A stretch of DNA of 46,229 nt from a virus (IMGVR_UViG_3300027908_000001:151167-197395), one strand, 5' to 3'; counted from the first letter of the stretch, positions 8,632 through 38,572 are shown. The notes: generated by a model not told the origin, from the letters alone. Translations and numbers: made by a program.

Positions 8632-9323
8632 GCACCACCGTCTGTCATTGCCGCTATCTTAGCCTGAATTCCACCTGTGGCACTGAGGCGATGTATTCCT
8701 GCAAATGTCGCCAGACAAAACGCGTGGTCAAGCTCCGGCCGGACCAGCGCCAGACTTTCCGCCAATTGATGAGTGAATCCGGAGACATGCACAAGCTCTA
8801 TCACAAGTATTGCCGGGAAGTAGGGCGGCTCAAGGAATCTGACCGTACCGGCTATGAGTTCATGGAATGGATGCAGTGTTTCTCAAAGCGCAACCCGGCT
8901 GTCCTACGTGTCGGCGTTGACGATGATTGTCATGCGGGTTCGGATGTCTATCTCATCCCACACGAAAGCCGGTACGAACTATGGGGCGTGACGGTGCTTT
9001 ATATCCCGCAATGCACCGGTGAGAAGCCTATTCGGTTTTTTCTCTATCCGAACCATCTACGCGCGATGATGAAGGCGCTGGAAGTCATGGCGAAAACATG
9101 CCGGAGCCATGGCAATCGGACGCTCTCCGGATGCTGGGAAAATGAATCCAAGCCAAACGCACACGACGGCATACCCAAATCAATCACCTTGAAAAGTGTC
9201 CGTGATAACCCATCGAACTGGTCGCCTCCGAAACCGATTTCCAAGGCCAAGAAGAAAAAACTGGCGGCTCTCCGAAGGCGCATGAAGCGTCAGGCGGCTC
9301 AACTGCGAAAGAAAAAATCTTGA
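8628..9323 (+). CDS. hypothetical protein
   Basis: ATGA coupling. Confidence 0.65.
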   Translation: MSTTVCHCRYLSLNSTCGTEAMYSCKCRQTKRVVKLRPDQRQTFRQLMSESGDMHKLYHKYCREVGRLKESDRTGYEFMEWMQCFSKRNPAVLRVGVDDDCHAGSDVYLIPHESRYELWGVTVLYIPQCTGEKPIRFFLYPNHLRAMMKALEVMAKTCRSHGNRTLSGCWENESKPNAHDGIPKSITLKSVRDNPSNWSPPKPISKAKKKKLAALRRRMKRQAAQLRKKKS

Positions 9324-9883: not shown

Positions 9884-10815
9884 GCAATAGGAAATGCAAC
9901 GATTGCGGCACCCAGCTTCGTGAGGATGAAGGCTACTGGGCCGAAGGTCGCAAGAAAGATGTATGCAGCGAATGCTACCGAGACATCGTTTCCGATTGCA
10001 CCATCTGCGGTGATGAAGATGTCATGCCGAGCGATGTCAGTGATTACATTCTCTGCAAGGCCGAACTCAGCACCACGGCAAGACGGCCGCCGGGCATCTA
10101 TCTGGTGATTGACCGTCCGTTCCTTTCCATCCCCCTTGTTGGCACCGGTTCGCTTCACGCCAGTGACGTGCTCTTTATTGACAAGCTCCCAAAGCGTGAC
10201 GACCAGTATGACATCAGCGGCCATATCTGCAAGGCATGCTCCAAGCCATTCGCGCGAACTTACCGGGCCGCCTACGGTGGATTTCACGCGAGCGGTGAAT
10301 ACCGCCGGTACAAGCATCCCAAGATGAGCGCGCTACGATTCAGCAAGGCTGGCTGGGAATTCATGCGCGATTACACGCGGTCAGTCATCCTTGCCAATCC
10401 GGACATGCTGCGCGATTTGGAGTGCGATTCGGTTGACGAGGACGCCGATGGGCACCATTTGAGTTACGCCAACGCCAATGACTGGAATGAAATCAAGGAA
10501 CTCTACAAACTTCCAGACCTGCCAACTTACTACGAGTGGGTGGCCGTGAATCGAAAAGGCGTGAAAGTGTATCACACCATCCCCGGTAGCTGGTACTGGA
10601 TGTCTCTGCGGCCAGAGCCCATGTTCCGCAATGCTGCAGGCCGCTCCAAGGAAACCTTCGGGCCAAGCAGTTTGCCGACCTACGATTCCGGCGGGGTGTA
10701 TGATTATTGTTCAACGGGACAGTTTTGCAAACCGGCCATCATTAAGGCCATCGACCAAGGTATTCTAACGCAGCAAGGTATATTCGTGAATGGAAAGGAA
10801 CTGGTGTGTCATTGA
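9880..10815 (+). CDS. Zn-finger-containing hypothetical protein
   Basis: Multiple CxxC; ATGA coupling. Confidence 0.7.
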   Translation: MSNRKCNDCGTQLREDEGYWAEGRKKDVCSECYRDIVSDCTICGDEDVMPSDVSDYILCKAELSTTARRPPGIYLVIDRPFLSIPLVGTGSLHASDVLFIDKLPKRDDQYDISGHICKACSKPFARTYRAAYGGFHASGEYRRYKHPKMSALRFSKAGWEFMRDYTRSVILANPDMLRDLECDSVDEDADGHHLSYANANDWNEIKELYKLPDLPTYYEWVAVNRKGVKVYHTIPGSWYWMSLRPEPMFRNAAGRSKETFGPSSLPTYDSGGVYDYCSTGQFCKPAIIKAIDQGILTQQGIFVNGKELVCH

Positions 10816-13059: not shown

Positions 13060-14085
13060 TTACTTGGCGCTCGCGCTCCTCGGGGGTCGCAACATCGGCA
13101 CCAGCCCTAGATTCTCGCCGAACAGGGCTTTCAACACATCCTGTTTGACATTGAGCGGGTAGAACGGCCACTCGTCCCGCATGAGTTTCCGCATCCGTTT
13201 GACGGCCAGTACCTCGACCTGTCGAATCCGTTCACGGGTCAGACCGAGAATGGTGGCTATCTCCGATAATTCGTGCGGCTCGATGCCATTCAACCCGAAC
13301 CGCAGCCGGAGCACTATGCGGTATTGCTCCGGCAACTTGGCGATGCATTCTTCCATCCACTCGACTTTCAACTTGGCGTCGACGACCTCGCTAACGGGCG
13401 CGGCATCTTCATCGGCGAAGTAGTCCCCCATTGTCTCCAGCTTGCCATCGCCCGGAAGGCGTTTGTCCAAAGGTAATGGCGGCTTGTTCAAGGCCAGTAA
13501 ACGTTCCAGCCGCTCCACAGACATGCCGGTTTCTACGGAGAGTTCATCGACGGTCGGTTGACGGCCCAACGAGTCAGCCAGCTTGGTGCGGACCCTATTG
13601 ACCCGACCGAGCCGACCGGCCACCTTGACCGTCAGGCGCACGCACCGGGCGTTGCCGCTCATGTAAATCTTGATGTTCTTGCGTATCCACCAACCGGCAT
13701 ACGTGGAAAACTTAGCGACACGCCCCAACTCGAACCGGTCGACGGCCTCCATGAGCCCGAGGTTTCCTTCCTGTATCAGGTCCAACACGGATACGCCGCA
13801 GTTCTCGAAGTCTCGGGCAATCGTCACGACCAGCCGGAGGTTCCGCTCAATCATCTCGCGTTTGGCCGCTCGACTGCCGTGACACATCTTTTCCGCCAGC
13901 GCCAGTTCTTCGGCATCCGTGAGGCGCGGGAATTTACCGATGTGATTCAGGTAGGCTTCGAGGGTGTCCGCGACAAAGACAGCGGGATGAACCGGGGTCT
14001 CGACCGGTTCATCCCGAACTTCGTTTGTCTTTACTACACCGTTCGGTGCTGTACTACGGCACCCACGGTTCTTACTTTTCCCCAC
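13060..14085 (-). CDS. sigma70-family RNA polymerase sigma factor (RpoD/RpoS-like, regions 1.2-4)
   Basis: NLRLVVTIA, DLIQEGNLGL, KFSTYAGWWIR, LTRERIRQVE; GTG start after GGAGG. Confidence 0.93.
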   Translation of the reverse strand: MGKSKNRGCRSTAPNGVVKTNEVRDEPVETPVHPAVFVADTLEAYLNHIGKFPRLTDAEELALAEKMCHGSRAAKREMIERNLRLVVTIARDFENCGVSVLDLIQEGNLGLMEAVDRFELGRVAKFSTYAGWWIRKNIKIYMSGNARCVRLTVKVAGRLGRVNRVRTKLADSLGRQPTVDELSVETGMSVERLERLLALNKPPLPLDKRLPGDGKLETMGDYFADEDAAPVSEVVDAKLKVEWMEECIAKLPEQYRIVLRLRFGLNGIEPHELSEIATILGLTRERIRQVEVLAVKRMRKLMRDEWPFYPLNVKQDVLKALFGENLGLVPMLRPPRSASAK

Positions 14086-14216
14086 CCAACCCTCCTTGTG
14101 ATTGCAAGGTAGCGAGCGCAATAAATCGATGCAACAAAAAACGCACGTCGCGAGCGATTTATTTGCAGACGCCGAAACATCTTGACCGGTTAGGTCCGTA
14201 GCGCCAATATGTACAC

Positions 14217-15413
14217 ATGAAATCTGTTCGGCGCATGAAAATAAAGCTCGGCGGAAACGGCAGATTTGATGAAGTCGTAATATCATATTTGGCAGCCGCA
14301 AACTGGCTTTCAGCCATCGTGTTTGAATCCAAAGAGATGAATCCCAACAGACTGCAACGAGCGCATTACGCAACAATTCGCAGAAATTTTGGTTTAATGG
14401 CCCAGCTTACCTGCTCCGTCATCAGTCAAGTGGCATCCATATATAAAAGCGGCAAGGCACTCGGAAGGTGGAAGAAGGCAAAATTCCAAAAACCAACGTT
14501 TCCGATTAGGTATGGAGGAAAAGGGAAGGATTTTTCAAGAAAAGGAAACGGCATCCGAATCTGGAAGCAATTCATTCCTATGCAACATCCACATATTCCG
14601 GAAGCCGGATGGAAGGGTTCAATCCTAAAACGAGTAGGCAAAATCTGGTACCTCCTGCTCGCCTATGAAGTCGATATTCCCGACCACAAAACCACCGGCA
14701 GCATCATTGGAGTGGACTTCGGAATCAATCGGCTCATGGTCGCGACCAACTCGGCGAACTCCAACACTTTCTATTTCAAGGGCGGGATGCTCAATCATCG
14801 TCGCTGTTGTATCCGCCAAACCCGCAGTGCCGTCCAAGCCGTTGGCTCCCGGTCCAGCCGTCGTTTGCTCAAGCGACTCTCTGGCCACGAGGCTGCCGTA
14901 ACGGGACATCTGTTGCATGTCGCATCCAAAGCCTTGGTTCGGTACGCGGTCGAAAACGGAGCGCAGCGTATCGTCCTTGAAGACCTGACGAACATACGAG
15001 ACCGTTCGCTCAAAAGAGGGAAAGACCACCGTTCTAAAATAGGCCGTTGGCCGTTCTGGGACGGGCAATTCAAGATTGCCTACAAGGCACAGGCCGTAGG
15101 CATTGACAGCGAGAAGGTCAGCCCGCGCAATACAAGCTGTGGCTGTCCTAGATGTGGTCATGTCTCGGCGTCGAACCGGAGAGGCTTGCGCTTCGCCTGT
15201 GTGAAGTGCGGCTACCGGGGCGATGCGGACCGTGTAGCATCGGAAAATATCCGGCTGCGGTCAGTCGTGGCGGCGCAACGCGCTTCTACGACGGGGAATC
15301 ATAATCTCCCTGAAAGCTCGGAACCGTCTGAGATTGGTTCTGGACATATCAATTCAAGACTGTCCGGTGCTGATGTAGGTTCACGGCTAAAACCTGTCAG
15401 TATCGGCGGGTAG
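14217..15413 (+). mobile_element. tnpB: TnpB of an IS200/IS605-family non-autonomous element
   Basis: RuvC motifs GVDFG, VLEDL, DADRVAS; zinc ribbon CPRC..CVKC; no adjacent tnpA. Confidence 0.88.
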
Positions 15414-16642: not shown

Positions 16643-16669
16643 ATCAAAGAACAAAAAATCCTGCGCATT

Positions 16670-19322: not shown

Positions 19323-20554
19323 TTGACATCCACACGCCGTGAGGCGAGCTTCCGGGTTATGACATGAAGAGCACATCACAGAGCCGGTTGGTTGACGCTT
19401 CGACGGGAACTGCGCTTGGTGGCCGAAGCCGCCGAGCGTCTGACATTCCCTCCACGTCCAGTCACCGCGTGTCCCGCGGCCAAAATGTTGTGAGAAGAAT
19501 TTTCATCGCGGTCATGGTGTGCGCCACACTCGTGGCAATCCCACTCGCGGATACTCAGGGGCAGCTTGTCCAAGATAAAGCCGCACGAGTGGCACCGCTT
19601 GCTGGAAGGGAAGAACCGGTCAACAACCTTGAGTTCCTTGCCATATCGCTGCGTCTTGTAATCGACCATGGAGCGGAACTGGTACAGGCCGAGGTCGCCA
19701 ATGGAGCGCGACAGCGTTCTATTGGCCAACATTCCACGCACATTCAAATCTTCGACGGCGATGACATCGAATCTTTGTACCAAGTCCGTAGTGAACTTGT
19801 CGAGGTGGTCTTTGCGGCTGTCGGCGATGCGGGCGTGAAGTCTGGCCACCTTTATGCGTTGGCAATTCCACCTACCGCTGCCTTTCTTTCTTCGCGAGAG
19901 AACCCGCTGCGCTCGCGCCAGCTTCTTGGCATACTTCGCCGTATGCCTCGGGTTGGCAATTCGCTCTCCATTCGAGAGCGTCGCCAACCGATTTATCCCC
20001 AAGTCAACGCCGACCGCCTTGCCGGTCTTGGGCAAGGAGTTGACTTTCTCGTCGAGGCACAGCGTCACGAAATATCGCCCGGCACAGTCCTTGGTTATCG
20101 TGACTGTGCTGGGCTGACTCGTGAACGCGCGCGACCAGTGGATGTCCATTCTTCCTATTCCTGCTAGATGCAAATTCAGATTTACAGTGTCCCATTTGAA
20201 TCCGTGACCACTAAATTCAGCGGACTGTTTGCCTCGTTTAGATTTGAAGCGAGGGTACATGTTTCGTTTTGTAAAAAAATTGTTGAACGCGGACTGCAAA
20301 TGTCGCAAAGCTTGCTGCTGTGGGATGCTGGATGATTTCCATAGCCACTCAAACCCGCAGGAATGCCTATGCTTCGTCCATTCGGCGCTGGATTGATGGT
20401 AACTAATTCTGGTTTTATTTTCCCGGTACGAATCCGTCCGGAGCCGCAGCGCCCAATTGTAGGCGTGGCGAACGCAGCCGAATACCCGAGCCAACTCGCG
20501 TCGCTGCGGAGGCGTTGGATAGCAACGAAACCTATAACGAATCTTCACACGCAC
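19323..20554 (-). mobile_element. tnpB: IS605-type TnpB element (CDS 19376-20554) with right end TCAA at 19323-19326
   Basis: YRFRCYPT/FGCVRHAYN N-terminus; GVDLG, AVEDL, HDRDEN RuvC motifs; zinc ribbon; 3' ...GTGGATGTCAA. Confidence 0.9.
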
Positions 20555-27604: not shown

Positions 27605-27681
27605 TGGAGCCGGAAACGGATTGGGTGCCCGTAACATCCGTGCTACAAACACGGCGCTCTACCCATTTGAGCTATTCCGGC
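27605..27681 (-). tRNA. tRNA-Thr(TGT), aberrant T-loop
   Basis: Loop TTTGTAG, CCA. Confidence 0.78.
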
Positions 27682-28316: not shown

Positions 28317-28391
28317 TGGAGCCCAATGACGAACTTGCATCGTCCTCTCCGCATTACGAGTGCGGTGCGTCGCTGTCTCCGCTTATCGGGC
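28317..28391 (-). tRNA. tRNA-Thr(CGT)
   Basis: Loop CTCGTAA, CCA. Confidence 0.82.
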
Positions 28392-33126: not shown

Positions 33127-33208
33127 TGAATTCGTGGATGGGTCCAACCGCGGGGAACCGGTTACAGTTGGCGCTACCCGGCAGTCCCGACTTTTCCCAT
33201 CCACGAAA
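33127..33208 (-). ncRNA. stem-closed small RNA, AAUUCA 3' end
   Basis: 12-bp terminal stem between two tRNAs. Confidence 0.5.
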
Positions 33209-33707: not shown

Positions 33708-34319
33708 TCAGTATGTCCTCAACACCGGCCGCGTATCGTAGTACACGTTCCGTTTCTTCCCGGTCTCGATGAACTCGGAGGCCACCAGCGCCGCGTTGGC
33801 CGTGAGTCCCATGATGAAGCTGCGGGCGCGCGGCAACTGACAGACATCGATGGCGGCGTCGCTGGCGTGCTCCTTCATCGGCGTGAACACGGCATCCCAG
33901 ACCGCCTCGCCGGTCAACTGGCCGGAGAACCCGACGTGGAGGACAGAGCATCCCTTGCACAGGTCGATGAATAAATTCCGGCTCCGCGCATTGTCGAACG
34001 CATCTATCAAGACCGCGGTTTCGTCATAACCGGGTCCGTGGATGATGTCGTACAAGTTGCCTGATACAAGAATGCGCTTGTTGACCGCCTCAATCCGTTT
34101 CCCGAACTGCTGCTGGATAATGCGCTGGATGGCCTGCACTTTCGGTCGGCCCACATCAGCCTTGGTGTACGGCTGCGTACCGGCCTGATAGTTGCGCGGC
34201 TCGACCACGTCGCTGTCGACGCAGGTGTAACTCAGGTCCGGGTACGTGGCGACCAGATTCAGGAACACGTTGCTCCCGGCGGCTCCGACTCCAAAGATGA
34301 TGACGTGGTCGATGGTCAT
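33708..34319 (-). CDS. ThiF/E1-like adenylyltransferase
   Basis: GVGAAG; D.DVVEPRN; DVGRPKV; DAFDN..SR; candidate catalytic Cys in IDVCQLP. Confidence 0.88.
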   Translation of the reverse strand: MTIDHVIIFGVGAAGSNVFLNLVATYPDLSYTCVDSDVVEPRNYQAGTQPYTKADVGRPKVQAIQRIIQQQFGKRIEAVNKRILVSGNLYDIIHGPGYDETAVLIDAFDNARSRNLFIDLCKGCSVLHVGFSGQLTGEAVWDAVFTPMKEHASDAAIDVCQLPRARSFIMGLTANAALVASEFIETGKKRNVYYDTRPVLRTY

Positions 34320-34549
34320 CGCAAGCTCTTTGGATATTCGCCGGTGACCACCATCCGCGCGATGGACATTCTCCATTCCTCGTTGATGTCGGCGGATTGC
34401 AGTCCCCACATCGTGGCGATACTGGCCTCTTCGTGGCCTTCTCGGAACGCGCGCTCAATCAAGGTGCAAACAACATCCGCTGGCATATTGTCGGTAACGA
34501 CGATGTTTTTGGTGAGCGGCGCTTTGAATTCCAAGTCAGCGTGTTGCAT
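34316..34549 (-). CDS. hypothetical protein
   Basis: Coupled to the E1 gene; promoter directly upstream. Confidence 0.6.
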   Translation of the reverse strand: MQHADLEFKAPLTKNIVVTDNMPADVVCTLIERAFREGHEEASIATMWGLQSADINEEWRMSIARMVVTGEYPKSLR

Positions 34550-34556
34550 GCCGCGC

Positions 34557-34586
34557 ACGGTATCGCGATTCGCGCAGTGTTGTCAA
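34557..34586 (-). promoter_or_regulatory. promoter with operator (34564-34574), drives the E1 unit
   Basis: TTGACA-18-TACCGT. Confidence 0.7.
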
Positions 34587-34589
34587 CGG

Positions 34590-34625
34590 AAAAAGAAAGA
34601 GCCGGGCGATTGTTCCCGGCTCTCT
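34590..34625 (-). terminator. intrinsic terminator of the fMet/Y-like RNA operon
   Basis: AGAGCCGGG/CCCGGCTCT hairpin followed by TTCTTTTT. Confidence 0.8.
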
Positions 34626-34630
34626 CGAAA

Positions 34631-34767
34631 TGAATTAGCAGTCGAATATGAAACGAGTTTTACCGTTGCAGCAGCGGGATTTGACTCCCGCAACCTTTGG
34701 ATTAGTATTCCAATGCTCTACCATTGAGCTATGTTGCGTGTACCTCGATTCGGGTGGCGACCGCTAA
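34631..34767 (-). ncRNA. Y-RNA-like RNA 3: tRNA cloverleaf enclosed by a long terminal stem
   Basis: 5' TTAGCGGTCG pairs with 3' CGACTGCTAA; D, anticodon and T arms inside; no CCA. Confidence 0.7.
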
Positions 34768-34769
34768 AT

Positions 34770-34899
34770 TGGCGGCCCGTGGTACGTGTCAAGTACCAAC
34801 TGCGAGTTCCGATTACTCGTGCTTGTAAATGATGTTCATGAGGCGACCGATTGCTCAGTCGAAGGCGAACCCATTGTGTTGACTTTTAGCTTACGGGCC
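34770..34899 (-). ncRNA. tRNA-like RNA 2 (Y-RNA-like candidate)
   Basis: Acceptor GGCCCGT/ACGGGCC, T arm, GCCA end, helix TTCGACTGA-GCAA-TCGGTCGCC. Confidence 0.65.
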
Positions 34900-34904
34900 G
34901 AAAT

Positions 34905-35014
34905 TGGTGGAGGGGAGTCTTATGAGGACTGTCCGCTTGCGCGGGGCATGTATGCAAAAACCGCGGCGACCGCTCACGCAGTCGAATGTGTATCTGCCTA
35001 TTGCACTTCCCCCC
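34905..35014 (-). ncRNA. tRNA-like RNA 1 (Y-RNA-like candidate)
   Basis: G-rich acceptor with G3.U, ACCA end, internal helix TTCGACTGC-GTGA-GCGGTCGCC. Confidence 0.65.
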
Positions 35015-35021
35015 ACTAGAT

Positions 35022-35101
35022 TGGTCGCAGGAGCGCGGATTTGAACCACGCGGTCTCCGGGTTATGAGCCCAGTGTAGAACGACCTCTCTACTGTCCTGC
35101 A
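35022..35101 (-). tRNA. tRNA-fMet(CAT), atypical
   Basis: Three G-C pairs closing the CTCATAA loop; weak 1-72 pair; CCA. Confidence 0.8.
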
Positions 35102-35116
35102 ATCTCTAAAAATGTC

Positions 35117-35179
35117 CAAAGAACAAACTGCCAAATCGTGTAACGCGCTACCTATACGGCCTGTGCGCGCCGGAGTCAA
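35117..35179 (-). promoter_or_regulatory. promoter without operator, plus boxA-like element, for the RNA operon
   Basis: TTGACT-17-TATAGG; TTGTTCTTTG at 35117-35126. Confidence 0.7.
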
Positions 35180-35199
35180 CAACTATTTCAGAAATATTT

Positions 35200-35955
35200 T
35201 CATTGCCGTGTCCGGTGAATGTAACTGCCTTCCTCGACGTAGGTCTTGAGCAGGTTCGGTAAGCTGCGCGCCGATTGGCTCCGGTCCCCGCCCGAGGTGC
35301 AGAACCCGGCTTCCATCACCCTAAAATCCTTGGAGAGCACCGTGTTGATGGTGTGCCCCGATAACTTCCAGACCACTTCGTACCCGTCGTGGCGCGGCGT
35401 GATGCGCGTCACCATGGCTCCCGAGGCGGCCATGCTGGACTTGATGACCGCGACCGGTTCTTCGGCCAGTTTCTTGCGGCGTTCGATAAGGTGGAAGCCT
35501 ATGGCCACACGAATCGCTGGCGTGGCACCCTTCCATTCGATGACGCGCGTGCCCGGTCTGACATTCGCCATGGCAGCGGCAACATCGGTCAGCACGTAAT
35601 CCGTAGCATCGTGAATCGTTTGCAGGTAGTACAGAAACTTCCCGCGCACGGCGACCACCTCGATATACTCGAACTCACCGAATTGGCCGTCCACGACTTC
35701 CAGCGGGAGATTCGGGTACTTCACCGGCTGGTCCGGCACTATGCCGCTGTGGAAGCTGACGCCGCGAATCACCTGCATGGTGGAATACTTCCGGAACGCG
35801 GCGATGGCGTCGGTCAGATTGGCCGGTTCAAATGTAGCCAGCGGATTGGTAGCGCTCGGGTCCATTGAGTACACGCCATTGCCCGCGACATCCAGCGCCT
35901 TGCATTCAGCCCGCTCGCCGTAGAATACGCCGTCTTTGACGATGCCGAAAATCAC
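35200..35955 (-). CDS. uncharacterised protein, candidate E2-equivalent thioester carrier
   Basis: Coupled to JAB; C-terminal EAGFCTSGGD Cys motif; function is inferred. Confidence 0.6.
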   Translation of the reverse strand: MIFGIVKDGVFYGERAECKALDVAGNGVYSMDPSATNPLATFEPANLTDAIAAFRKYSTMQVIRGVSFHSGIVPDQPVKYPNLPLEVVDGQFGEFEYIEVVAVRGKFLYYLQTIHDATDYVLTDVAAAMANVRPGTRVIEWKGATPAIRVAIGFHLIERRKKLAEEPVAVIKSSMAASGAMVTRITPRHDGYEVVWKLSGHTINTVLSKDFRVMEAGFCTSGGDRSQSARSLPNLLKTYVEEGSYIHRTRQ

Positions 35956-36368
35956 GGAATGACCTCATCGTTGTAACTGTACCGAATCACCTCTTTCATG
36001 TCTGACATGAAATCCGAATCCCCTATGCCGCACCAGTCGCCGAATCCTACTTCCAAAATCATCCGCGAGACGCACAAGTAATCGCAGTATTCGCCGTTGC
36101 AGTACACCGTGAACCAGACCGGCATGCCGAGCGCCAGTGACCAGCCGAACAGCATATTGCGGTCGGTCGAGGACATTCGTTCCACGCCATGCGGATGCGT
36201 ATGAAACATGAACGCCATTGTGGGCCGAGGCTTGGAATCCCGCACGACCGGCCAGATGGCGTCCCAATCGAAATTCACCGAGCCGGTGCTATCGTCCGAG
36301 CCGAGCCAGATGCGGCCAGTCTCGGGCGTCCAGAAAGCTGCGACCTCGCGCTGGAAGATGTCGCCCAT
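35952..36368 (-). CDS. JAB/MPN+ metallopeptidase
   Basis: E..HTHPHGVERMSSTD matches HxHx7SxxD. Confidence 0.82.
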   Translation of the reverse strand: MGDIFQREVAAFWTPETGRIWLGSDDSTGSVNFDWDAIWPVVRDSKPRPTMAFMFHTHPHGVERMSSTDRNMLFGWSLALGMPVWFTVYCNGEYCDYLCVSRMILEVGFGDWCGIGDSDFMSDMKEVIRYSYNDEVIP

Positions 36369-36369
36369 G

Positions 36370-36513
36370 CTACAGGCTCGCCAGCACCAAGAATATGAAT
36401 ACCACGGCGGCACCGATAGTAGCTACCGCTATGATGGTGAAGCAGACCGGATGGGCCATGAACGAAACTTCAAACCCATAGTCAGCCGTTACAGCCAAAA
36501 GCAACGCCTTCAT
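36370..36513 (-). CDS. small TM protein (47 aa)
   Basis: ATGA-coupled to the vWA gene; hydrophobic C-terminus. Confidence 0.5.
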   Translation of the reverse strand: MKALLLAVTADYGFEVSFMAHPVCFTIIAVATIGAAVVFIFLVLASL

Positions 36514-38129
36514 TTCGCCTCCACCTCACCCCACCACCGGGGCAACGGCGGCAATGGCGTATCGAGAATATCCTCGATGATAGCCAACTCGCCGACGACC
36601 GCGTTGCGGACGCTCTGAGCGACAAGCGCGGATTCGGACAGAGATTCCGGCGTCATCACGGCGACTGGAATGCTCAGCGCCCGGAGCATGTTCGCCAGTA
36701 CGTCCGACTTGCAGCCCATGTGGACAATGATGGCGGCGCGCGGCTTCGGCAAATGACCGACCCGACCCACAATCGTGTGCTCGTTGCCAGCCGTGTTCTG
36801 GCCGTCGGTCACGTAGACATCGATGTCTGCGCCGAACTTCCGCGCGTCCTCGTAGAGCGCGAAGCAGTCCGTGCCGCCACCAGCCACGACCCCGAACAGC
36901 TTCTGGTGGAATCCGTCCTTGGTGAACTTGGTCGGCACCTCCAGCTTGCGCGCGCGGTCCGAGAACGTCCCCCAGCGGAAGTTTACCGCCGGGTCATCCA
37001 CGCACTCGGCGAAGATAGCGCCCCGGTCTTTGGCGACTTCCAGCGCGCCTTGCATCGAACCAGAGACATCGATGTGCATATAAATCTTGCCAATCTTGGA
37101 CAGGTTGGCCTGCCGCTTGCGCTTGGTGCTCCGAACGTCCGCCATGGCAGTCTTGTCGCTCGCCGTGGCGTCGGCGGTCAACGTATCGAGCCGGTCCACC
37201 GCGGTCGTGGCGTCTTGCACCTTGTCCTTAAACAATTCCAGTATCTCCGGCACGTCCAGATAACCGTTACGCGCGAACCAGCGGTAAACAATGATGGCTT
37301 GGTTGCCGGTAGAAATATCGAGTAGCGCCTTGGCGACTTTCGGCGTCATCTTCTTGCGCGGGATGATGGACATGGCCATCGGTGCCGACATCTTACCTTT
37401 GCCGAGTTCCTCGATGATTTCGGATGGACTCATTTTCTCGAAGTCCGGCAGCTTGAAATACTTGATATCGCGCTTCACCTTCGTGCCATCGGCCAGCTTG
37501 GTGCTGAGCGCGCGCCAGTTCAGTATGGCTGCGGCATCGTCCGAAGGATTGACGTGGCAGAGCAGATAAATCTTCTTCATCTTCTCGGACAACCCGTTCA
37601 GCCGGATTCCCATGAGCATGTCCGGATGCGCCTCGCGGTAACGGAGATACTTCACCATCGCGCGCCTCAGACCGGGCGAGAAATGACGGGCTTCGTCGAG
37701 CAGACCGGGCACGCCGAACTTCATTCGGGCAAAACTTCCGACGCGGAGCGCCAGATGTGGGTCGAGTTCCTGCAGGAGTATGGCGCTGACTTGCCGGAGG
37801 TTCGGCTTCGTCAACTTCGACCCCTTGAAAAACACCTGTCCATCGCCGTCGTTGAGCGAGTTGAAATAGACCGCCAACACCTTCAAATCTTTCGAGTCAC
37901 CCTTGAACGACCACGCACAGAGATGTGCCATGAAAATCGGGTCGTGCTTGGCCAAGTCGGTGAACAGCGCGCAGGCTTCGAGCCACTTGTCCATCTGCAA
38001 CTTGCCCTTGGAATACAAATGCCCACAAGCAGCGGTCAACAGTTTGAATATGGCCAGACGCTTGTCGTCACTGTACTCCGGCAAAATGGTTGGTTGCGTG
38101 GTTCGGCGTGTCGCGATTCGAGTTGTCAT
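36510..38129 (-). CDS. Ro60/TROVE-like helical domain plus vWA domain protein
   Basis: C-terminal vWA with MIDAS DVSGS, GGTD, VTDG (firm); basic helical N-domain with DPIF motif (TROVE call is inferred). Confidence 0.75.
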   Translation of the reverse strand: MTTRIATRRTTQPTILPEYSDDKRLAIFKLLTAACGHLYSKGKLQMDKWLEACALFTDLAKHDPIFMAHLCAWSFKGDSKDLKVLAVYFNSLNDGDGQVFFKGSKLTKPNLRQVSAILLQELDPHLALRVGSFARMKFGVPGLLDEARHFSPGLRRAMVKYLRYREAHPDMLMGIRLNGLSEKMKKIYLLCHVNPSDDAAAILNWRALSTKLADGTKVKRDIKYFKLPDFEKMSPSEIIEELGKGKMSAPMAMSIIPRKKMTPKVAKALLDISTGNQAIIVYRWFARNGYLDVPEILELFKDKVQDATTAVDRLDTLTADATASDKTAMADVRSTKRKRQANLSKIGKIYMHIDVSGSMQGALEVAKDRGAIFAECVDDPAVNFRWGTFSDRARKLEVPTKFTKDGFHQKLFGVVAGGGTDCFALYEDARKFGADIDVYVTDGQNTAGNEHTIVGRVGHLPKPRAAIIVHMGCKSDVLANMLRALSIPVAVMTPESLSESALVAQSVRNAVVGELAIIEDILDTPLPPLPRWWGEVEAK

Positions 38130-38158
38130 ATCCTTGGCTCCTTGGTGCCGCGAATCTC

Positions 38159-38572
38159 TCACTTCAATGATGCGATGTCAAACACTATTCCACGACAATA
38201 CGGTTTTCCGTCCTCGACAATCTCGAAGTTGTCGTGTGGTATGGCCGTCTTATACGTCCACGAGTAATCGCCTTCCTTGCACCACAGCGCTTCAATCTTC
38301 TTGGCCTTCTTCTTGGCCTCGGCGAACCCGCACCACTTGCATTCGCAATCCTCGTGCCCTTCCAGCGGACCTTCCGCCGTGACAAACACGTCTCCACCAT
38401 CGTTCGGGGGATAGCATTCATCGTTGATAGCGCCCTCGAACTCCATGAGGTCATCCGATGCGCCGTACACGACCACCAGTCCGGCAGCCTTGGCCTCGGC
38501 AATTTCGGCCTTGGTCATCTCGAATGGATACTCGCGGCCAGTAAGTTTTGCGGCAAGCTGTTCTTTATTCAT
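38159..38572 (-). CDS. conserved phage hypothetical protein
   Basis: GLVVVYGASDDLMEFEGA..YCRGIVF. Confidence 0.8.
   Translation of the reverse strand: MNKEQLAAKLTGREYPFEMTKAEIAEAKAAGLVVVYGASDDLMEFEGAINDECYPPNDGGDVFVTAEGPLEGHEDCECKWCGFAEAKKKAKKIEALWCKEGDYSWTYKTAIPHDNFEIVEDGKPYCRGIVFDIASLK

What the first reader, a model, noticed from the sequence alone, without database searches (positions are those of the whole stretch)
34631..35014. Three tandem tRNA-like RNAs share one helix (UUCGACUG/CGGUCGCC), circularly permuted in the third
Seen: RNA1 has TTCGACTGC-GTGA-GCGGTCGCC (34965-34986) and RNA2 has TTCGACTGA-GCAA-TCGGTCGCC (34842-34863). Both are GNRA-capped, differ by a compensatory C-G/A-U pair, and sit inside acceptor+T-arm+CCA shells. 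RNA3 forms the same helix from its 5' end (GCGGTCGCC) and 3' end (TTCGACTGC) around an unpermuted cloverleaf. All follow tRNA-fMet in one promoter-boxA-terminator unit. Established: the Ro-binding stem of Y RNAs contains GGUC/GACU. Inference: this is a shared protein-binding site, probably for the neighbouring Ro-like protein. RNA1 has G3.U and A73 and so might be alanylated.
Basis: partly seen in the sequence, partly recalled or inferred. Interest (0 to 1): 0.88.

Follow-up and report, generated by a model that had tools for sequence, protein, structure and literature searches.

The report
Phage Ro60-like protein's partner RNAs
A 197-kb phage encodes three small tRNA-shaped RNAs that all carry the same short helix, next to a very diverged relative of the RNA-binding ring protein Ro60; the same RNA-protein pairing recurs in related phages, so this is probably an undescribed branch of the known Ro60/Y-RNA particle, though binding is untested.

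Summary
On the minus strand, three adjacent RNAs (35014-34905, 34899-34770, 34767-34635) each carry UU-CGACUG / CGGUCG-CC. It forms a GNRA-capped hairpin in the first two and a closing stem around a tRNA cloverleaf in the third. This pairing occurs nowhere else in the 197-kb genome.

The 550-aa gene 1.5 kb upstream has no Pfam TROVE match. It folds as Ro60, and its N-domain alone matches only Ro60 structures at Z of 8 or more among 48,161 chains.

Related phage contigs keep the order Ro60-like, JAB-like, ~250-aa gene, RNA cluster, ThiF. Their RNAs carry the same module: stem 2, (A)CUU, helix, C-Y, stem 2', then a YUYACAAGC box. The helix sequence varies with compensatory changes, while the flanks and box are conserved. 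A strict pattern finds 30 modules in 157 kb of such loci, 1 in 259 kb of control loci.

Best reading (0.6): Y-RNA-like partners of a remote Ro60, matured like tRNAs. Binding is untested. Rfam YrlA does not match, the third RNA is not a strict circular permutation, and alanylation of RNA1 is only possible. I found no paper or Rfam family for it. Earlier notes of this scan report the same kind of system on other DNA.

The parts
36510..38162 (-). Ro60-like protein (550 aa, P0001): helical-repeat N-domain plus C-terminal vWA domain with a DVSGS MIDAS motif
   Evidence: No Pfam or PHROG match. AF2 model pLDDT 82. The top 13 Foldseek PDB hits are all Ro60. VIA Z 13.5-15.6 over 411-436 residues. For the N-domain alone, only the three Ro60 representatives reach Z>=8.
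35952..36413 (-). JAB/MPN-like protein (153 aa), conserved between the Ro60-like gene and the RNA cluster
   Evidence: Weak Pfam Prok-JAB match, E 0.0056. Atlas feature and structure neighbours are Prok-JAB clusters. Same position in L008, L010, L036, L038 and L039.
35200..35955 (-). Conserved 251-aa protein of unknown family, directly upstream of the RNA operon
   Evidence: No Pfam, PHROG or Atlas match. A 241-263-aa gene holds the same place in the relatives.
35151..35179 (-). Promoter-like TTGACT (35179-35174), 17-nt spacer, TATAGG (35156-35151)
   Evidence: Read from the sequence. Not called by the consensus scanner because the -10 hexamer lacks the final T. This part is inference.
35115..35125 (-). 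boxA-like leader element UGUUCUUUGGA
   Evidence: Pattern search. The same element sits just upstream of the tmRNA (16653-16643) and of another structured-RNA stretch (44184-44174). Similar UGUUCUUU/UGAUCUUUGA elements open the RNA clusters of L010, L036, L038 and L039.
35022..35101 (-). tRNA(CAU), initiator-like: GGG/CCC in the anticodon stem, U1.G72, encoded CCA
   Evidence: Rfam tRNA 28.1 bits against a cut-off of 29. Not found by ARAGORN. Sequence.
34905..35014 (-). RNA1, 110 nt: acceptor stem G1-G6 with G3.U70, A73, CCA. A long arm carries stem 2, an internal loop and the helix CGACUGC-GUGA-GCGGUCG (34984-34967), followed by the box AUACAUGC.
   Evidence: Aligns with hairpin-type RNAs of relatives. 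L039 5689-5791 has the same acceptor stem.
34770..34899 (-). RNA2, 130 nt: 7-bp acceptor stem, G73, CCA. The helix CGACUGA-GCAA-UCGGUCG (34861-34844) sits on a 10-bp stem 2, followed by the box UUUACAAGC.
34635..34767 (-). RNA3, 133 nt: 5' UUAGCGGUCG-CC and 3' UU-CGACUGCUAA form a 10-bp closing helix. Stem 2 is GAAUCGAG/CUCGUUUC and the box is GUACACGC. Inside is a tRNA-like cloverleaf (34738-34666; anticodon loop AUACUAA; mismatches C1xA72 and A5xC68).
   Evidence: Aligns with nine closing-type units of L010, L036, L038 and L039, with covariation.
34586..34626 (-). Intrinsic terminator: 12-bp stem with 8 G-C pairs, then a T-run
33708..34409 (-). ThiF/E1-like protein downstream of the RNA operon
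   Evidence: Pfam ThiF, E 6e-12. ThiF also follows the RNA cluster in L010, L036, L038 and L039.

Best explanation
The locus is a phage version of the Ro60/Y-RNA ribonucleoprotein.

One transcription unit runs from a promoter-like site and a boxA-like leader to an intrinsic terminator. It yields a tRNA(CAU) and three stable non-coding RNAs of 110-133 nt. RNA1 and RNA2 have tRNA-type ends: a 6-7-bp acceptor stem, a discriminator base and an encoded CCA followed by AUUU. They are therefore probably cut out by the host's tRNA-processing enzymes (inferred).

Each RNA displays one module: a proximal stem, an asymmetric internal loop ((A/C)UU on one strand, CC on the other), and a 7-10-bp distal helix. 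The distal helix is either capped by a GNRA tetraloop (RNA1, RNA2) or left open as the RNA's own paired termini, as in Y RNAs (RNA3).

I infer that this module is the docking site for the divergent Ro60-like ring encoded 1.5 kb upstream on the same strand. The variable tRNA-like parts would be what the particle presents to other factors, such as tRNA-binding enzymes, nucleases or the ribosome.

Shown here: the helix, its conservation and covariation, its exclusive association with this gene family, and the Ro60 fold of the protein. Inferred: the processing, the binding and the downstream role.
For: - The protein is Ro60-like. Full-length Foldseek hits ranked 1-13 are all Ro60, with E down to 3.5e-8. 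VIA Z is 13.5-15.6 over 411-436 residues spanning both domains. For the N-domain alone against 48,161 chains, only the three Ro60 representatives reach Z>=8 (11.3, 11.2, 10.2; next best 7.5). The MIDAS motif DVSGS is present.
- Synteny is conserved. The order Ro60-like, JAB-like, ~250-aa gene, gene-free RNA cluster of 0.6-1.2 kb, ThiF is kept in five other distinct contigs whose Ro60-like protein is 53-58% identical to this one.
- The module recurs. Twenty-three instances from seven contigs have the 5' flank ACUU in 17 and C-U or C-C on the 3' side in 22, with helix pairs that vary by compensatory change.
- Covariation in the ten closing-type units: 90% of cells are paired, 25 of 27 pairs change on both sides, and 0 of 500 shuffles reach this. 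Slid controls give 27-44% paired. Stem 2 was not used to pick the units, yet it is 88% paired with 8 of 9 pairs covarying.
- Twelve hairpin-type modules fold into the same two-stem shape when folded alone.
- Specificity: a strict pattern finds 30 modules in 157 kb of Ro60-like loci, 1 in 259 kb of unrelated phage loci, and 0 in the other 194 kb of this genome.
- A distant relative (L005) has a YrlA-type permuted RNA carrying the same ACUU/box module directly upstream of its Ro60-like gene. It scores 29.1 bits against Rfam YrlA, with E 1.2e-4 within that stretch.
- Y RNAs are known to lie within 4 kb of Ro60 on the same strand, and Ro60 mainly contacts the 5' strand GGUCCGA / GNCGAA (PMC4201824). 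The corresponding strand here reads GGUCGCC.
Against: - No binding or expression data exist.
- Rfam YrlA and Y_RNA give no match in the window at E<=10.
- Pfam TROVE matches none of 36 family members at E<=1, and sequence searches of the PDB find no Ro60. Homology of the protein therefore rests on predicted structure. With Foldseek alone the N-domain match is weak (E 0.05).
- The helix sequence is not conserved among relatives, so the GGUC/GACU likeness to metazoan Y RNAs may be chance.
- Helix 1 of the closing units was selected for complementarity, so its 100% pairing is partly by construction.
- Other conserved neighbours (the 251-aa protein, JAB, ThiF) could be the real RNA partners.
Confidence: 0.6

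Rival explanations
1. The module is a processing or stability element: a clamp that protects the ends or guides an endonuclease such as RNase III or RNase E. On this view it is common to stable RNAs of these phages and is not a specific Ro60-like binding site.
For: Other non-tRNA RNAs of this window are also closed by terminal stems and share the AUUU ... AAUUCA(U/A)UUU junctions of RNA3. CCA-AUUU junctions are frequent on this strand: 17 on the minus strand against 3 on the plus strand. The distal end of the helix tolerates any loop or an open end.
Against: The other stem-closed RNAs lack the UU/CC flanks and the box. The module occurs only in the RNA cluster beside the Ro60-like gene, and nowhere else in the tRNA array or the genome. 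The conserved unpaired flanks and the box point to specific recognition.
Confidence: 0.15
2. The module is recognised by a different conserved neighbour, not by the Ro60-like ring. Candidates are the 251-aa protein or the JAB / ThiF / ubiquitin-like set.
For: The 251-aa gene and the JAB-like gene always lie between the Ro60-like gene and the RNAs, and ThiF lies just after them.
Against: None of these has a recognisable RNA-binding fold in the searches made. In more distant loci (L002, L003, L005) the RNAs sit upstream of the Ro60-like gene, away from that gene order. Ro60 is the one family here with a known habit of binding adjacent tRNA-like RNAs (PMC4201824, PMC12135203).
Confidence: 0.15
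3. The RNAs are working tRNAs or tRNA precursors used in translation. The module would then be an expendable insertion or a leader-trailer duplex removed during maturation.
For: The inner part of RNA3 scores 54 bits as tRNA. The inner tRNAs of L036 and L038 units are called by ARAGORN as Ile-GAU and Glu-UUC. Relatives have full cloverleaves with the module in the variable-arm position.
Against: RNA1 and RNA2 have no D arm or anticodon arm and do not match Rfam tRNA at E<=10. The RNA3 cloverleaf has two acceptor mismatches and an ACU anticodon without the long arm of serine tRNAs. Anticodon loops of relatives often lack U33. The phage already carries a full tRNA set of 32 or more.
Confidence: 0.07
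4. The three identical helices are a leftover of recent local duplication and have no function.
For: The helix is identical in all three RNAs of this phage, whereas relatives have different helices in each unit.
Against: Identity is confined to 8+8 nt. The adjoining stems and the rest of the RNAs are unrelated in sequence. The one difference is compensatory. The same module with covariation is kept across contigs whose proteins are only 35-58% identical.
Confidence: 0.02

Closest known systems
Bacterial and phage Rsr (Ro60) with YrlA/YrlB Y RNAs (Chen et al. 2014, PMC4201824; Rfam RF02553)
   Same: A Ro60-type protein with several small RNAs encoded within a few kb on the same strand. The RNAs combine a stem that carries the presumed Ro site with a tRNA-like domain. 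M. smegmatis YrlA is even cut by RNase P and receives CCA. One distant relative of this locus (L005) has a weak YrlA match that carries the same module.
   Different: The protein is not detected by Pfam TROVE. The RNAs do not match RF02553. The tRNA-like part is in native rather than permuted order. In RNA1/2 the acceptor end is open and genome-encoded with CCA, while the Ro-type helix is a capped hairpin. In RNA3 the helix closes a complete cloverleaf. The conserved motif is (A)CUU / C-Y plus YUYACAAGC rather than GNCGAA. The genome has no RtcB.
Thermus phage phiLo Ro60 with Yrl1/Yrl2 (PMC12135203; PDB 9KOP, 9L5Y)
   Same: A phage-encoded Ro60 with two adjacent Y-RNA-like partners. It is the best structural match of the protein here, with Z 15.6 for the full length and 11.3 for the N-domain.
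   Different: Only 12-16% identity. As that paper describes them, the phiLo Yrls are plain stem-bulge-stem RNAs with a CGAA motif, with no tRNA-like shells or CCA ends mentioned.
Metazoan and Deinococcus Y RNAs (Ro-binding helix, 5' strand GGUCCGA)
   Same: RNA3 pairs its 5' and 3' ends. The helix reads CGGUC/GACUG with a G.U wobble followed by G-C, U-A and C-G, as in the vertebrate helix. The vertebrate 3' strand is quoted from my own knowledge; the 5' strand is from PMC4201824.
   Different: There is no bulged C. Relatives of this phage use quite different helix sequences, so the sequence likeness may be accidental.
tmRNA (alanine-accepting tRNA mimic)
   Same: RNA1 has G1-C72, G2-C71, G3.U70, G4-C69, A73 and CCA. 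This is the AlaRS identity set, which is established knowledge. The phage's own tmRNA lies in the same window.
   Different: There is no mRNA-like reading frame or pseudoknots, and no Rfam tmRNA match at this site. G3.U70 occurs in only 4 of 13 related shells.
Dictyostelid Class I RNAs (PMC7919456)
   Same: A short covarying stem joins the 5' and 3' ends, with a conserved box rich in UACA..GCAA after the 5' strand. This lead came from earlier notes of this scan.
   Different: Class I RNAs are 42-65 nt with the 11-nt motif directly next to the stem. Here a second stem strand of about 10 nt intervenes, the box has an extra A, and the RNAs are 103-142 nt with tRNA-like parts. No Rfam match in the window. 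I checked only the paper's description.

Membership tests
Ro60 / TROVE protein family (for ORF 36510-38162) | Sequence match to Pfam TROVE (PF05731) | tested here: not met
   No match for P0001, none in the whole genome in six frames, and none in 36 family members at E<=1. PDB sequence and profile searches find no Ro60.
Ro60 / TROVE protein family (for ORF 36510-38162) | Helical-repeat (HEAT) N-domain of the Ro60 type, followed by a C-terminal vWA domain with a MIDAS motif | tested here: met
   On predicted models only. Foldseek ranks 1-13 are all Ro60 over 534-609 alignment columns. VIA Z 13.5-15.6. For the N-domain alone, only Ro60 chains reach Z>=8 among 48,161. DVSGS motif at residues 365-369.
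Ro60 / TROVE protein family (for ORF 36510-38162) | Binds Y RNAs or misfolded RNAs | not testable with these tools
   Needs EMSA or pull-down. The complex predictor offered here takes no RNA.
YrlA / Y RNA (Rfam RF02553, RF00019) | Match to the covariance model | tested here: not met
   No YrlA or Y_RNA match at 34400-35300 at E<=10. Only the distant relative L005 gives 29.1 bits against a gathering score of 69.
YrlA / Y RNA (Rfam RF02553, RF00019) | Encoded within about 4 kb of the Ro60 gene on the same strand | tested here: met
   The RNAs lie 1.5-1.9 kb downstream of ORF 36510-38162 on the minus strand. The same holds in L006, L008, L010, L036, L038 and L039.
YrlA / Y RNA (Rfam RF02553, RF00019) | 5' and 3' ends pair into a stem that carries the Ro motif (GNCGAA / GGUCCGA) | tested here: inconclusive
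   RNA3 has the terminal stem, and its 5' strand reads GGUCGCC. RNA1/2 carry the helix as an internal hairpin. The motif matches only in part.
YrlA / Y RNA (Rfam RF02553, RF00019) | tRNA-like domain in permuted order (T arm, closed acceptor hairpin, D arm) | tested here: not met
   RNA3 holds a cloverleaf in native order. RNA1/2 have open acceptor ends with CCA.
tRNA (RF00005) | Covariance-model match, canonical acceptor stem and usable anticodon | tested here: inconclusive
   The RNA3 core scores 54.1 bits. However, ARAGORN misses it, it has mismatches C1xA72 and A5xC68, and its anticodon is ACU. RNA1 and RNA2 have no match at E<=10.
Alanine-accepting tRNA mimics (tmRNA-type acceptor) | G3.U70 in a 7-bp acceptor helix with A73 and a CCA end | tested here: met
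   In sequence only. RNA1 has pairs GC GC GU GC GC GC (AC), then A73 and CCA. L039 5689-5791 is the same. Charging itself cannot be tested here.

The most novel reading that the evidence does not exclude
This would be an undescribed branch of the Ro60/Y-RNA system in which the Ro handle is grafted onto chargeable tRNA shells (RNA1: G3.U70, A73, CCA). The particle would work together with the conserved flanking JAB / E1-like (ThiF) / ubiquitin-like cassette. That would link tRNA mimicry or aminoacylation to protein tagging during infection, for example as bait or decoy against host tRNA-targeting defences.
Probability: 0.08. Interest if true: 0.9.

Novelty: new variant of a known kind. Interest (0 to 1): 0.6.

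Why it matters
Ro60 and its Y RNAs are conserved from bacteria to humans, yet the function of the tRNA-like part of bacterial Y RNAs is still unknown.

This locus belongs to a large protein family: more than 160 metagenomic clusters at 90% identity, and 461 representatives at E<=0.001. Standard annotation misses both the protein (no TROVE match) and the RNAs (no Rfam family).

The same handle appears on three different RNA topologies. That makes a natural experiment showing which part is the docking site and which part is cargo.

The fixed neighbourhood, with a JAB peptidase and an E1-like enzyme inside large phage tRNA arrays, gives testable hints about what the particle is for.

Earlier notes of this scan report the same kind of system on other DNA, so the value of this window is as a clean, compact example with identical helices.

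Tried and rejected
- blastn of the RNA operon against 50,697 phage records found no match.
- An exact-pattern scan of IMG/VR for TTCGACTG-N6-CGGTCGCC gave 25 hits. All lie in unrelated, mostly coding contexts, none has a Ro60-like gene, and the number is about what chance predicts.
- One of those hits (L020) forms a similar hairpin in a 195.6-kb phage. That record has no homologue of the protein and the site looks coding, so I treat it as chance.
- A search for short GACT..GGTC hairpins in the first seven loci found nothing useful, because the relatives use other helix sequences.
- Sequence routes to Ro60 all failed: Pfam TROVE in the protein, the genome and 36 family members, and PDB phmmer and profile searches. 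Second-tier relatives from the exhaustive profile search carry only vWA domains, two of them with sub-threshold vWA_Ro60 matches.
- Foldseek with the N-domain alone gave no hit at E<=0.001. The Ro60 rows were nevertheless the only ones with probability of 0.8 or more, and the exhaustive aligner settled the question.
- RtcB is absent from the genome, so this is not the Salmonella-type rsr-yrlBA-rtcBA arrangement.
- The protein Atlas gave nothing for the 251-aa neighbour.
- A covariance model of the hairpin module was not built, because the MAFFT alignment (A4) misplaces the 3' strand. I used anchor-based counts in Python instead.
- No complex prediction was run, because the tool does not take RNA.

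Full report
**Setting.** The window is the last 46 kb of a complete 197,395-bp virus record with direct terminal repeats. It carries 32 tRNA genes by ARAGORN, a few more by Rfam, and a tmRNA, all on the minus strand. It also carries a sigma-70-type factor and two TnpB-like genes. The finding lies on the minus strand between 35014 and 34631.

Reading the minus strand gives the following order:
- a promoter-like TTGACT-17-TATAGG at 35179-35151;
- a boxA-like UGUUCUUUGGA at 35125-35115;
- a tRNA(CAU) at 35101-35022;
- three RNAs;
- an intrinsic terminator at 34626-34595 followed by a T-run.

RNA1 (35014-34905) and RNA2 (34899-34770) each contain the hairpin UU-CGACUG(C/A)-GNRA-(G/U)CGGUCG-CC, with a compensatory C-G/A-U change next to the loop. 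RNA3 (34767-34635) begins with UUAGCGGUCG-CC and ends with UU-CGACUGCUAA. These ends enclose an Rfam tRNA match of 54.1 bits at 34738-34666.

Both 8-mers are over-represented in the window: 6 against 1.46 expected, and 13 against 3.47. The paired arrangement is found only here in the whole genome.

**Corrections to the observation.**
- RNA1 and RNA2 have good acceptor stems with an encoded NCCA followed by AUUU. RNA1's pairs are GC GC GU GC GC GC followed by an A.C mismatch at 7:66, then A73. RNA2 has seven Watson-Crick pairs and G73.
- The hairpins at their T-arm position have non-canonical loops, and neither RNA matches Rfam tRNA even at E<=10.
- The leading tRNA(CAU) is just under Rfam's cut-off (28.1 against 29 bits) and ARAGORN misses it.
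- The -10 hexamer of the promoter fails the scanner's rule.

**The neighbouring protein.** ORF 36510-38162 (550 aa) has no Pfam or PHROG match. The genome has no TROVE match in six frames. It has more than 160 homologues of similar length in metagenomes, none with a precomputed Pfam domain, and none of 36 representatives matches TROVE at E<=1.

An AlphaFold2 model built with this alignment (pLDDT 82) shows a helical N-domain and a C-terminal alpha/beta domain with a DVSGS MIDAS motif.
- The first 13 Foldseek ranks against the PDB are all Ro60 structures aligned over the full length, with E down to 3.5e-8. They include phage phiLo Ro60, D. radiodurans Rsr, and Xenopus and human Ro60.
- The second aligner gives Z 13.5-15.6 over 411-436 residues.
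- The vWA domain alone already gives Z of about 13-14, so I folded the N-domain by itself (pLDDT 88). Foldseek was weak on it.
- An exhaustive alignment of the N-domain against 48,161 representative chains found exactly three chains with Z>=8. These are the three Ro60 representatives (11.3, 11.2, 10.2), aligned over 260-284 of 331 residues. The next hit is 7.5 over one third of the domain.

I therefore accept the protein as a remote Ro60 homologue on the basis of predicted structure.

**Relatives and synteny.** Seven IMG/VR loci and six further contigs carrying homologues were fetched. L008/L009, L010, L036, L038 and L039 carry homologues 53-58% identical to this protein. In these the gene order is the same as here: Ro60-like, a 150-230-aa gene (JAB-like here), a 241-263-aa gene, a gene-free stretch of 0.7-1.2 kb, and further on a ThiF-like gene. 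Those gene-free stretches, and tRNA-rich stretches next to the gene in the more distant loci, contain Rfam tRNA matches interrupted by 60-80-nt insertions.

**The shared module.** Inspection and a simple search showed one recurring module, in this order:
1. a proximal stem strand;
2. (A)CUU;
3. helix strand A;
4. helix strand B;
5. C followed by U or C;
6. the other proximal stem strand;
7. a box YUYACAAGC.

The module occurs in two arrangements:
- Hairpin type: strands A and B are joined by a short loop, and the whole module sits inside a shell with an acceptor stem and CCA. RNA1 and RNA2 belong here (alignment A3).
- Closing type: strand B is at the 5' end and strand A at the 3' end, 91-115 nt apart, around a tRNA-like cloverleaf. 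RNA3 belongs here (alignment A2).

A third arrangement, the permuted order of YrlA (T arm, closed acceptor hairpin, D arm), occurs in L005 directly upstream of its Ro60-like gene. It gives a weak Rfam YrlA match of 29.1 bits and carries the same ACUU and box.

The closest GC-rich relative, L036, has the same operon layout as this window: two hairpin-type RNAs, one closing-type RNA, then a terminator.

**Statistics.**
- Over 23 instances from seven contigs, the 5' flank is ACUU in 17 and the 3' flank is C-U or C-C in 22. Helix pairs 1, 2, 4, 5 and 6 show three to five pair types each, while pair 3 is A-U or G-C.
- On the ten closing units, RNAalifold and pair counting give 90% paired cells and 25 of 27 pairs with changes on both sides. 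The covariation score is 0.78 against 0.24 in shuffles (0 of 500 reach it), and slid controls give 27-44% paired.
- Caveat: the units were picked by complementarity of helix 1, so only stem 2 (88% paired, 8 of 9 pairs covarying) and the cloverleaf arms are unbiased.
- In L010, neighbouring units differ at one helix position in both strands (CGCAAUUC/GAAUUGCG against CGCAAUCC/GGAUUGCG). This supports pairing within a unit rather than between adjacent units.
- Twelve hairpin modules folded separately all give the same two-stem shape.
- A strict pattern finds 30 modules in 157 kb of Ro60-like loci, 1 in 259 kb of unrelated phage loci, and 0 in the other 194 kb of this genome.

- The helix is real, conserved as structure and tied to the Ro60-like gene, as a protein-binding site would be.
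- The relatives use quite different helix sequences. What is conserved is the internal loop ((A)CUU opposite C-Y), the two or three proximal pairs and the box.
- The distal end can be any stable tetraloop or an open end. If the Ro60-like protein binds, it most likely reads the loop-proximal part.
- The identity of the three helices in this phage, and their GGUC/GACU likeness to metazoan Y RNAs, may reflect local homogenisation or chance. The Ro-contacted 5' strand is GGUCCGA / GNCGAA according to PMC4201824. The corresponding strand here is GGUCGCC, and RUCCCU in most relatives, which is a partial likeness.

**Alanylation.** RNA1 carries the full AlaRS identity set (G3.U70, A73, CCA; established knowledge). 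Its counterpart in L039 has the same acceptor stem although the rest has diverged. However, G3.U70 occurs in only 4 of 13 shells, so charging is a possibility for RNA1 and not a property of the family.

**Comparison with the known.** Ro60 orthologues with adjacent tRNA-like Y RNAs are known in bacteria and phages (PMC4201824, PMC7824862). A phage Ro60 with two Yrl RNAs has been solved (PMC12135203). M. smegmatis YrlA is even cut by RNase P and receives CCA.

What differs here:
- the protein family escapes TROVE detection;
- the RNAs escape RF02553;
- the tRNA-like parts are in native order with encoded CCA;
- the handle sits either in the variable-arm region or around a whole cloverleaf;
- several such RNAs are made from one operon;
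- the fixed neighbours are a JAB-like and an E1-like gene, and RtcB is absent.

My literature searches found no description of this arrangement. Earlier AI notes of this scan describe the same kind of system on other genomes. I used them only as leads.

**Verdict.** The locus is best read as a new variant of the Ro60/Y-RNA particle. Binding, processing and function remain to be shown.

Noticed in passing
window 33708-36413 (- strand), and L010, L036, L038, L039: The Ro60-like gene is always followed by a JAB/MPN-like gene and a ~250-aa gene, and a ThiF/E1-like gene follows the RNA cluster. I confirmed only the JAB-like and ThiF assignments and the synteny.
   Followed up: partly
window 16643-16653, 35115-35125, 44174-44184 (- strand): A boxA-like element UGUUCUUUGR sits just upstream of the tmRNA, of this RNA operon and of another structured-RNA stretch. 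Similar elements open the RNA clusters of related contigs. This suggests antitermination on the phage's stable-RNA operons.
   Followed up: partly
window 33127-33208, 44528-44702, 45367-45524 (- strand): Three other non-tRNA RNAs in the tRNA array are closed by terminal stems. They share RNA3's junctions (AUUU before the stem, AAUUCA(A/U)UUU after it), but they lack the UU/CC-flanked helix and the box.
   Followed up: partly
window 34666-34738 and L010 9602-9671: The cloverleaf inside RNA3 and the one inside an L010 closing unit share the anticodon loop YUACUAA (anticodon ACU). This anticodon is not expected in a normal bacterial tRNA set. Other units carry other anticodons.
   Followed up: no
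window 35022-35101 and L005 2304-2379: The tRNA(CAU) at the head of the operon has the acceptor 5' strand UGCAGGA. A tRNA-Met(CAU) with the same acceptor strand lies near the Ro60-like gene of the distant relative L005.
   Followed up: no
L008 ~10008-10110 and L038 ~8786-8890: A third kind of unit has the closing helix and the UUACAAGC box but no tRNA-like core. Its 3' strand runs into a U-tract, so it also serves as the terminator of the RNA cluster. The two examples share an internal UUUUUCUACCAA(U/A)UAAGGAAAAAG stretch.
   Followed up: no
window 27608-27681 and 28320-28391 (- strand): Two further tRNA matches found by Rfam (43.5 and 44.1 bits) are missed by ARAGORN.
   Followed up: no
window 14217-15413 (+) and 19376-20554 (-); 13060-14376 (-): Two TnpB/IS605 OrfB-like genes and a full-length sigma-70-type factor lie in the phage's RNA-gene-rich arm.
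   Followed up: no
relatives' boxes, e.g. L038 8669-8679, L010 9593-9603: The box CUUACAAGCAA resembles the 11-nt motif of dictyostelid Class I RNAs, which also follows the 5' strand of a covarying terminal stem (PMC7919456). Here an extra stem strand intervenes and the box has one more A.
   Followed up: partly
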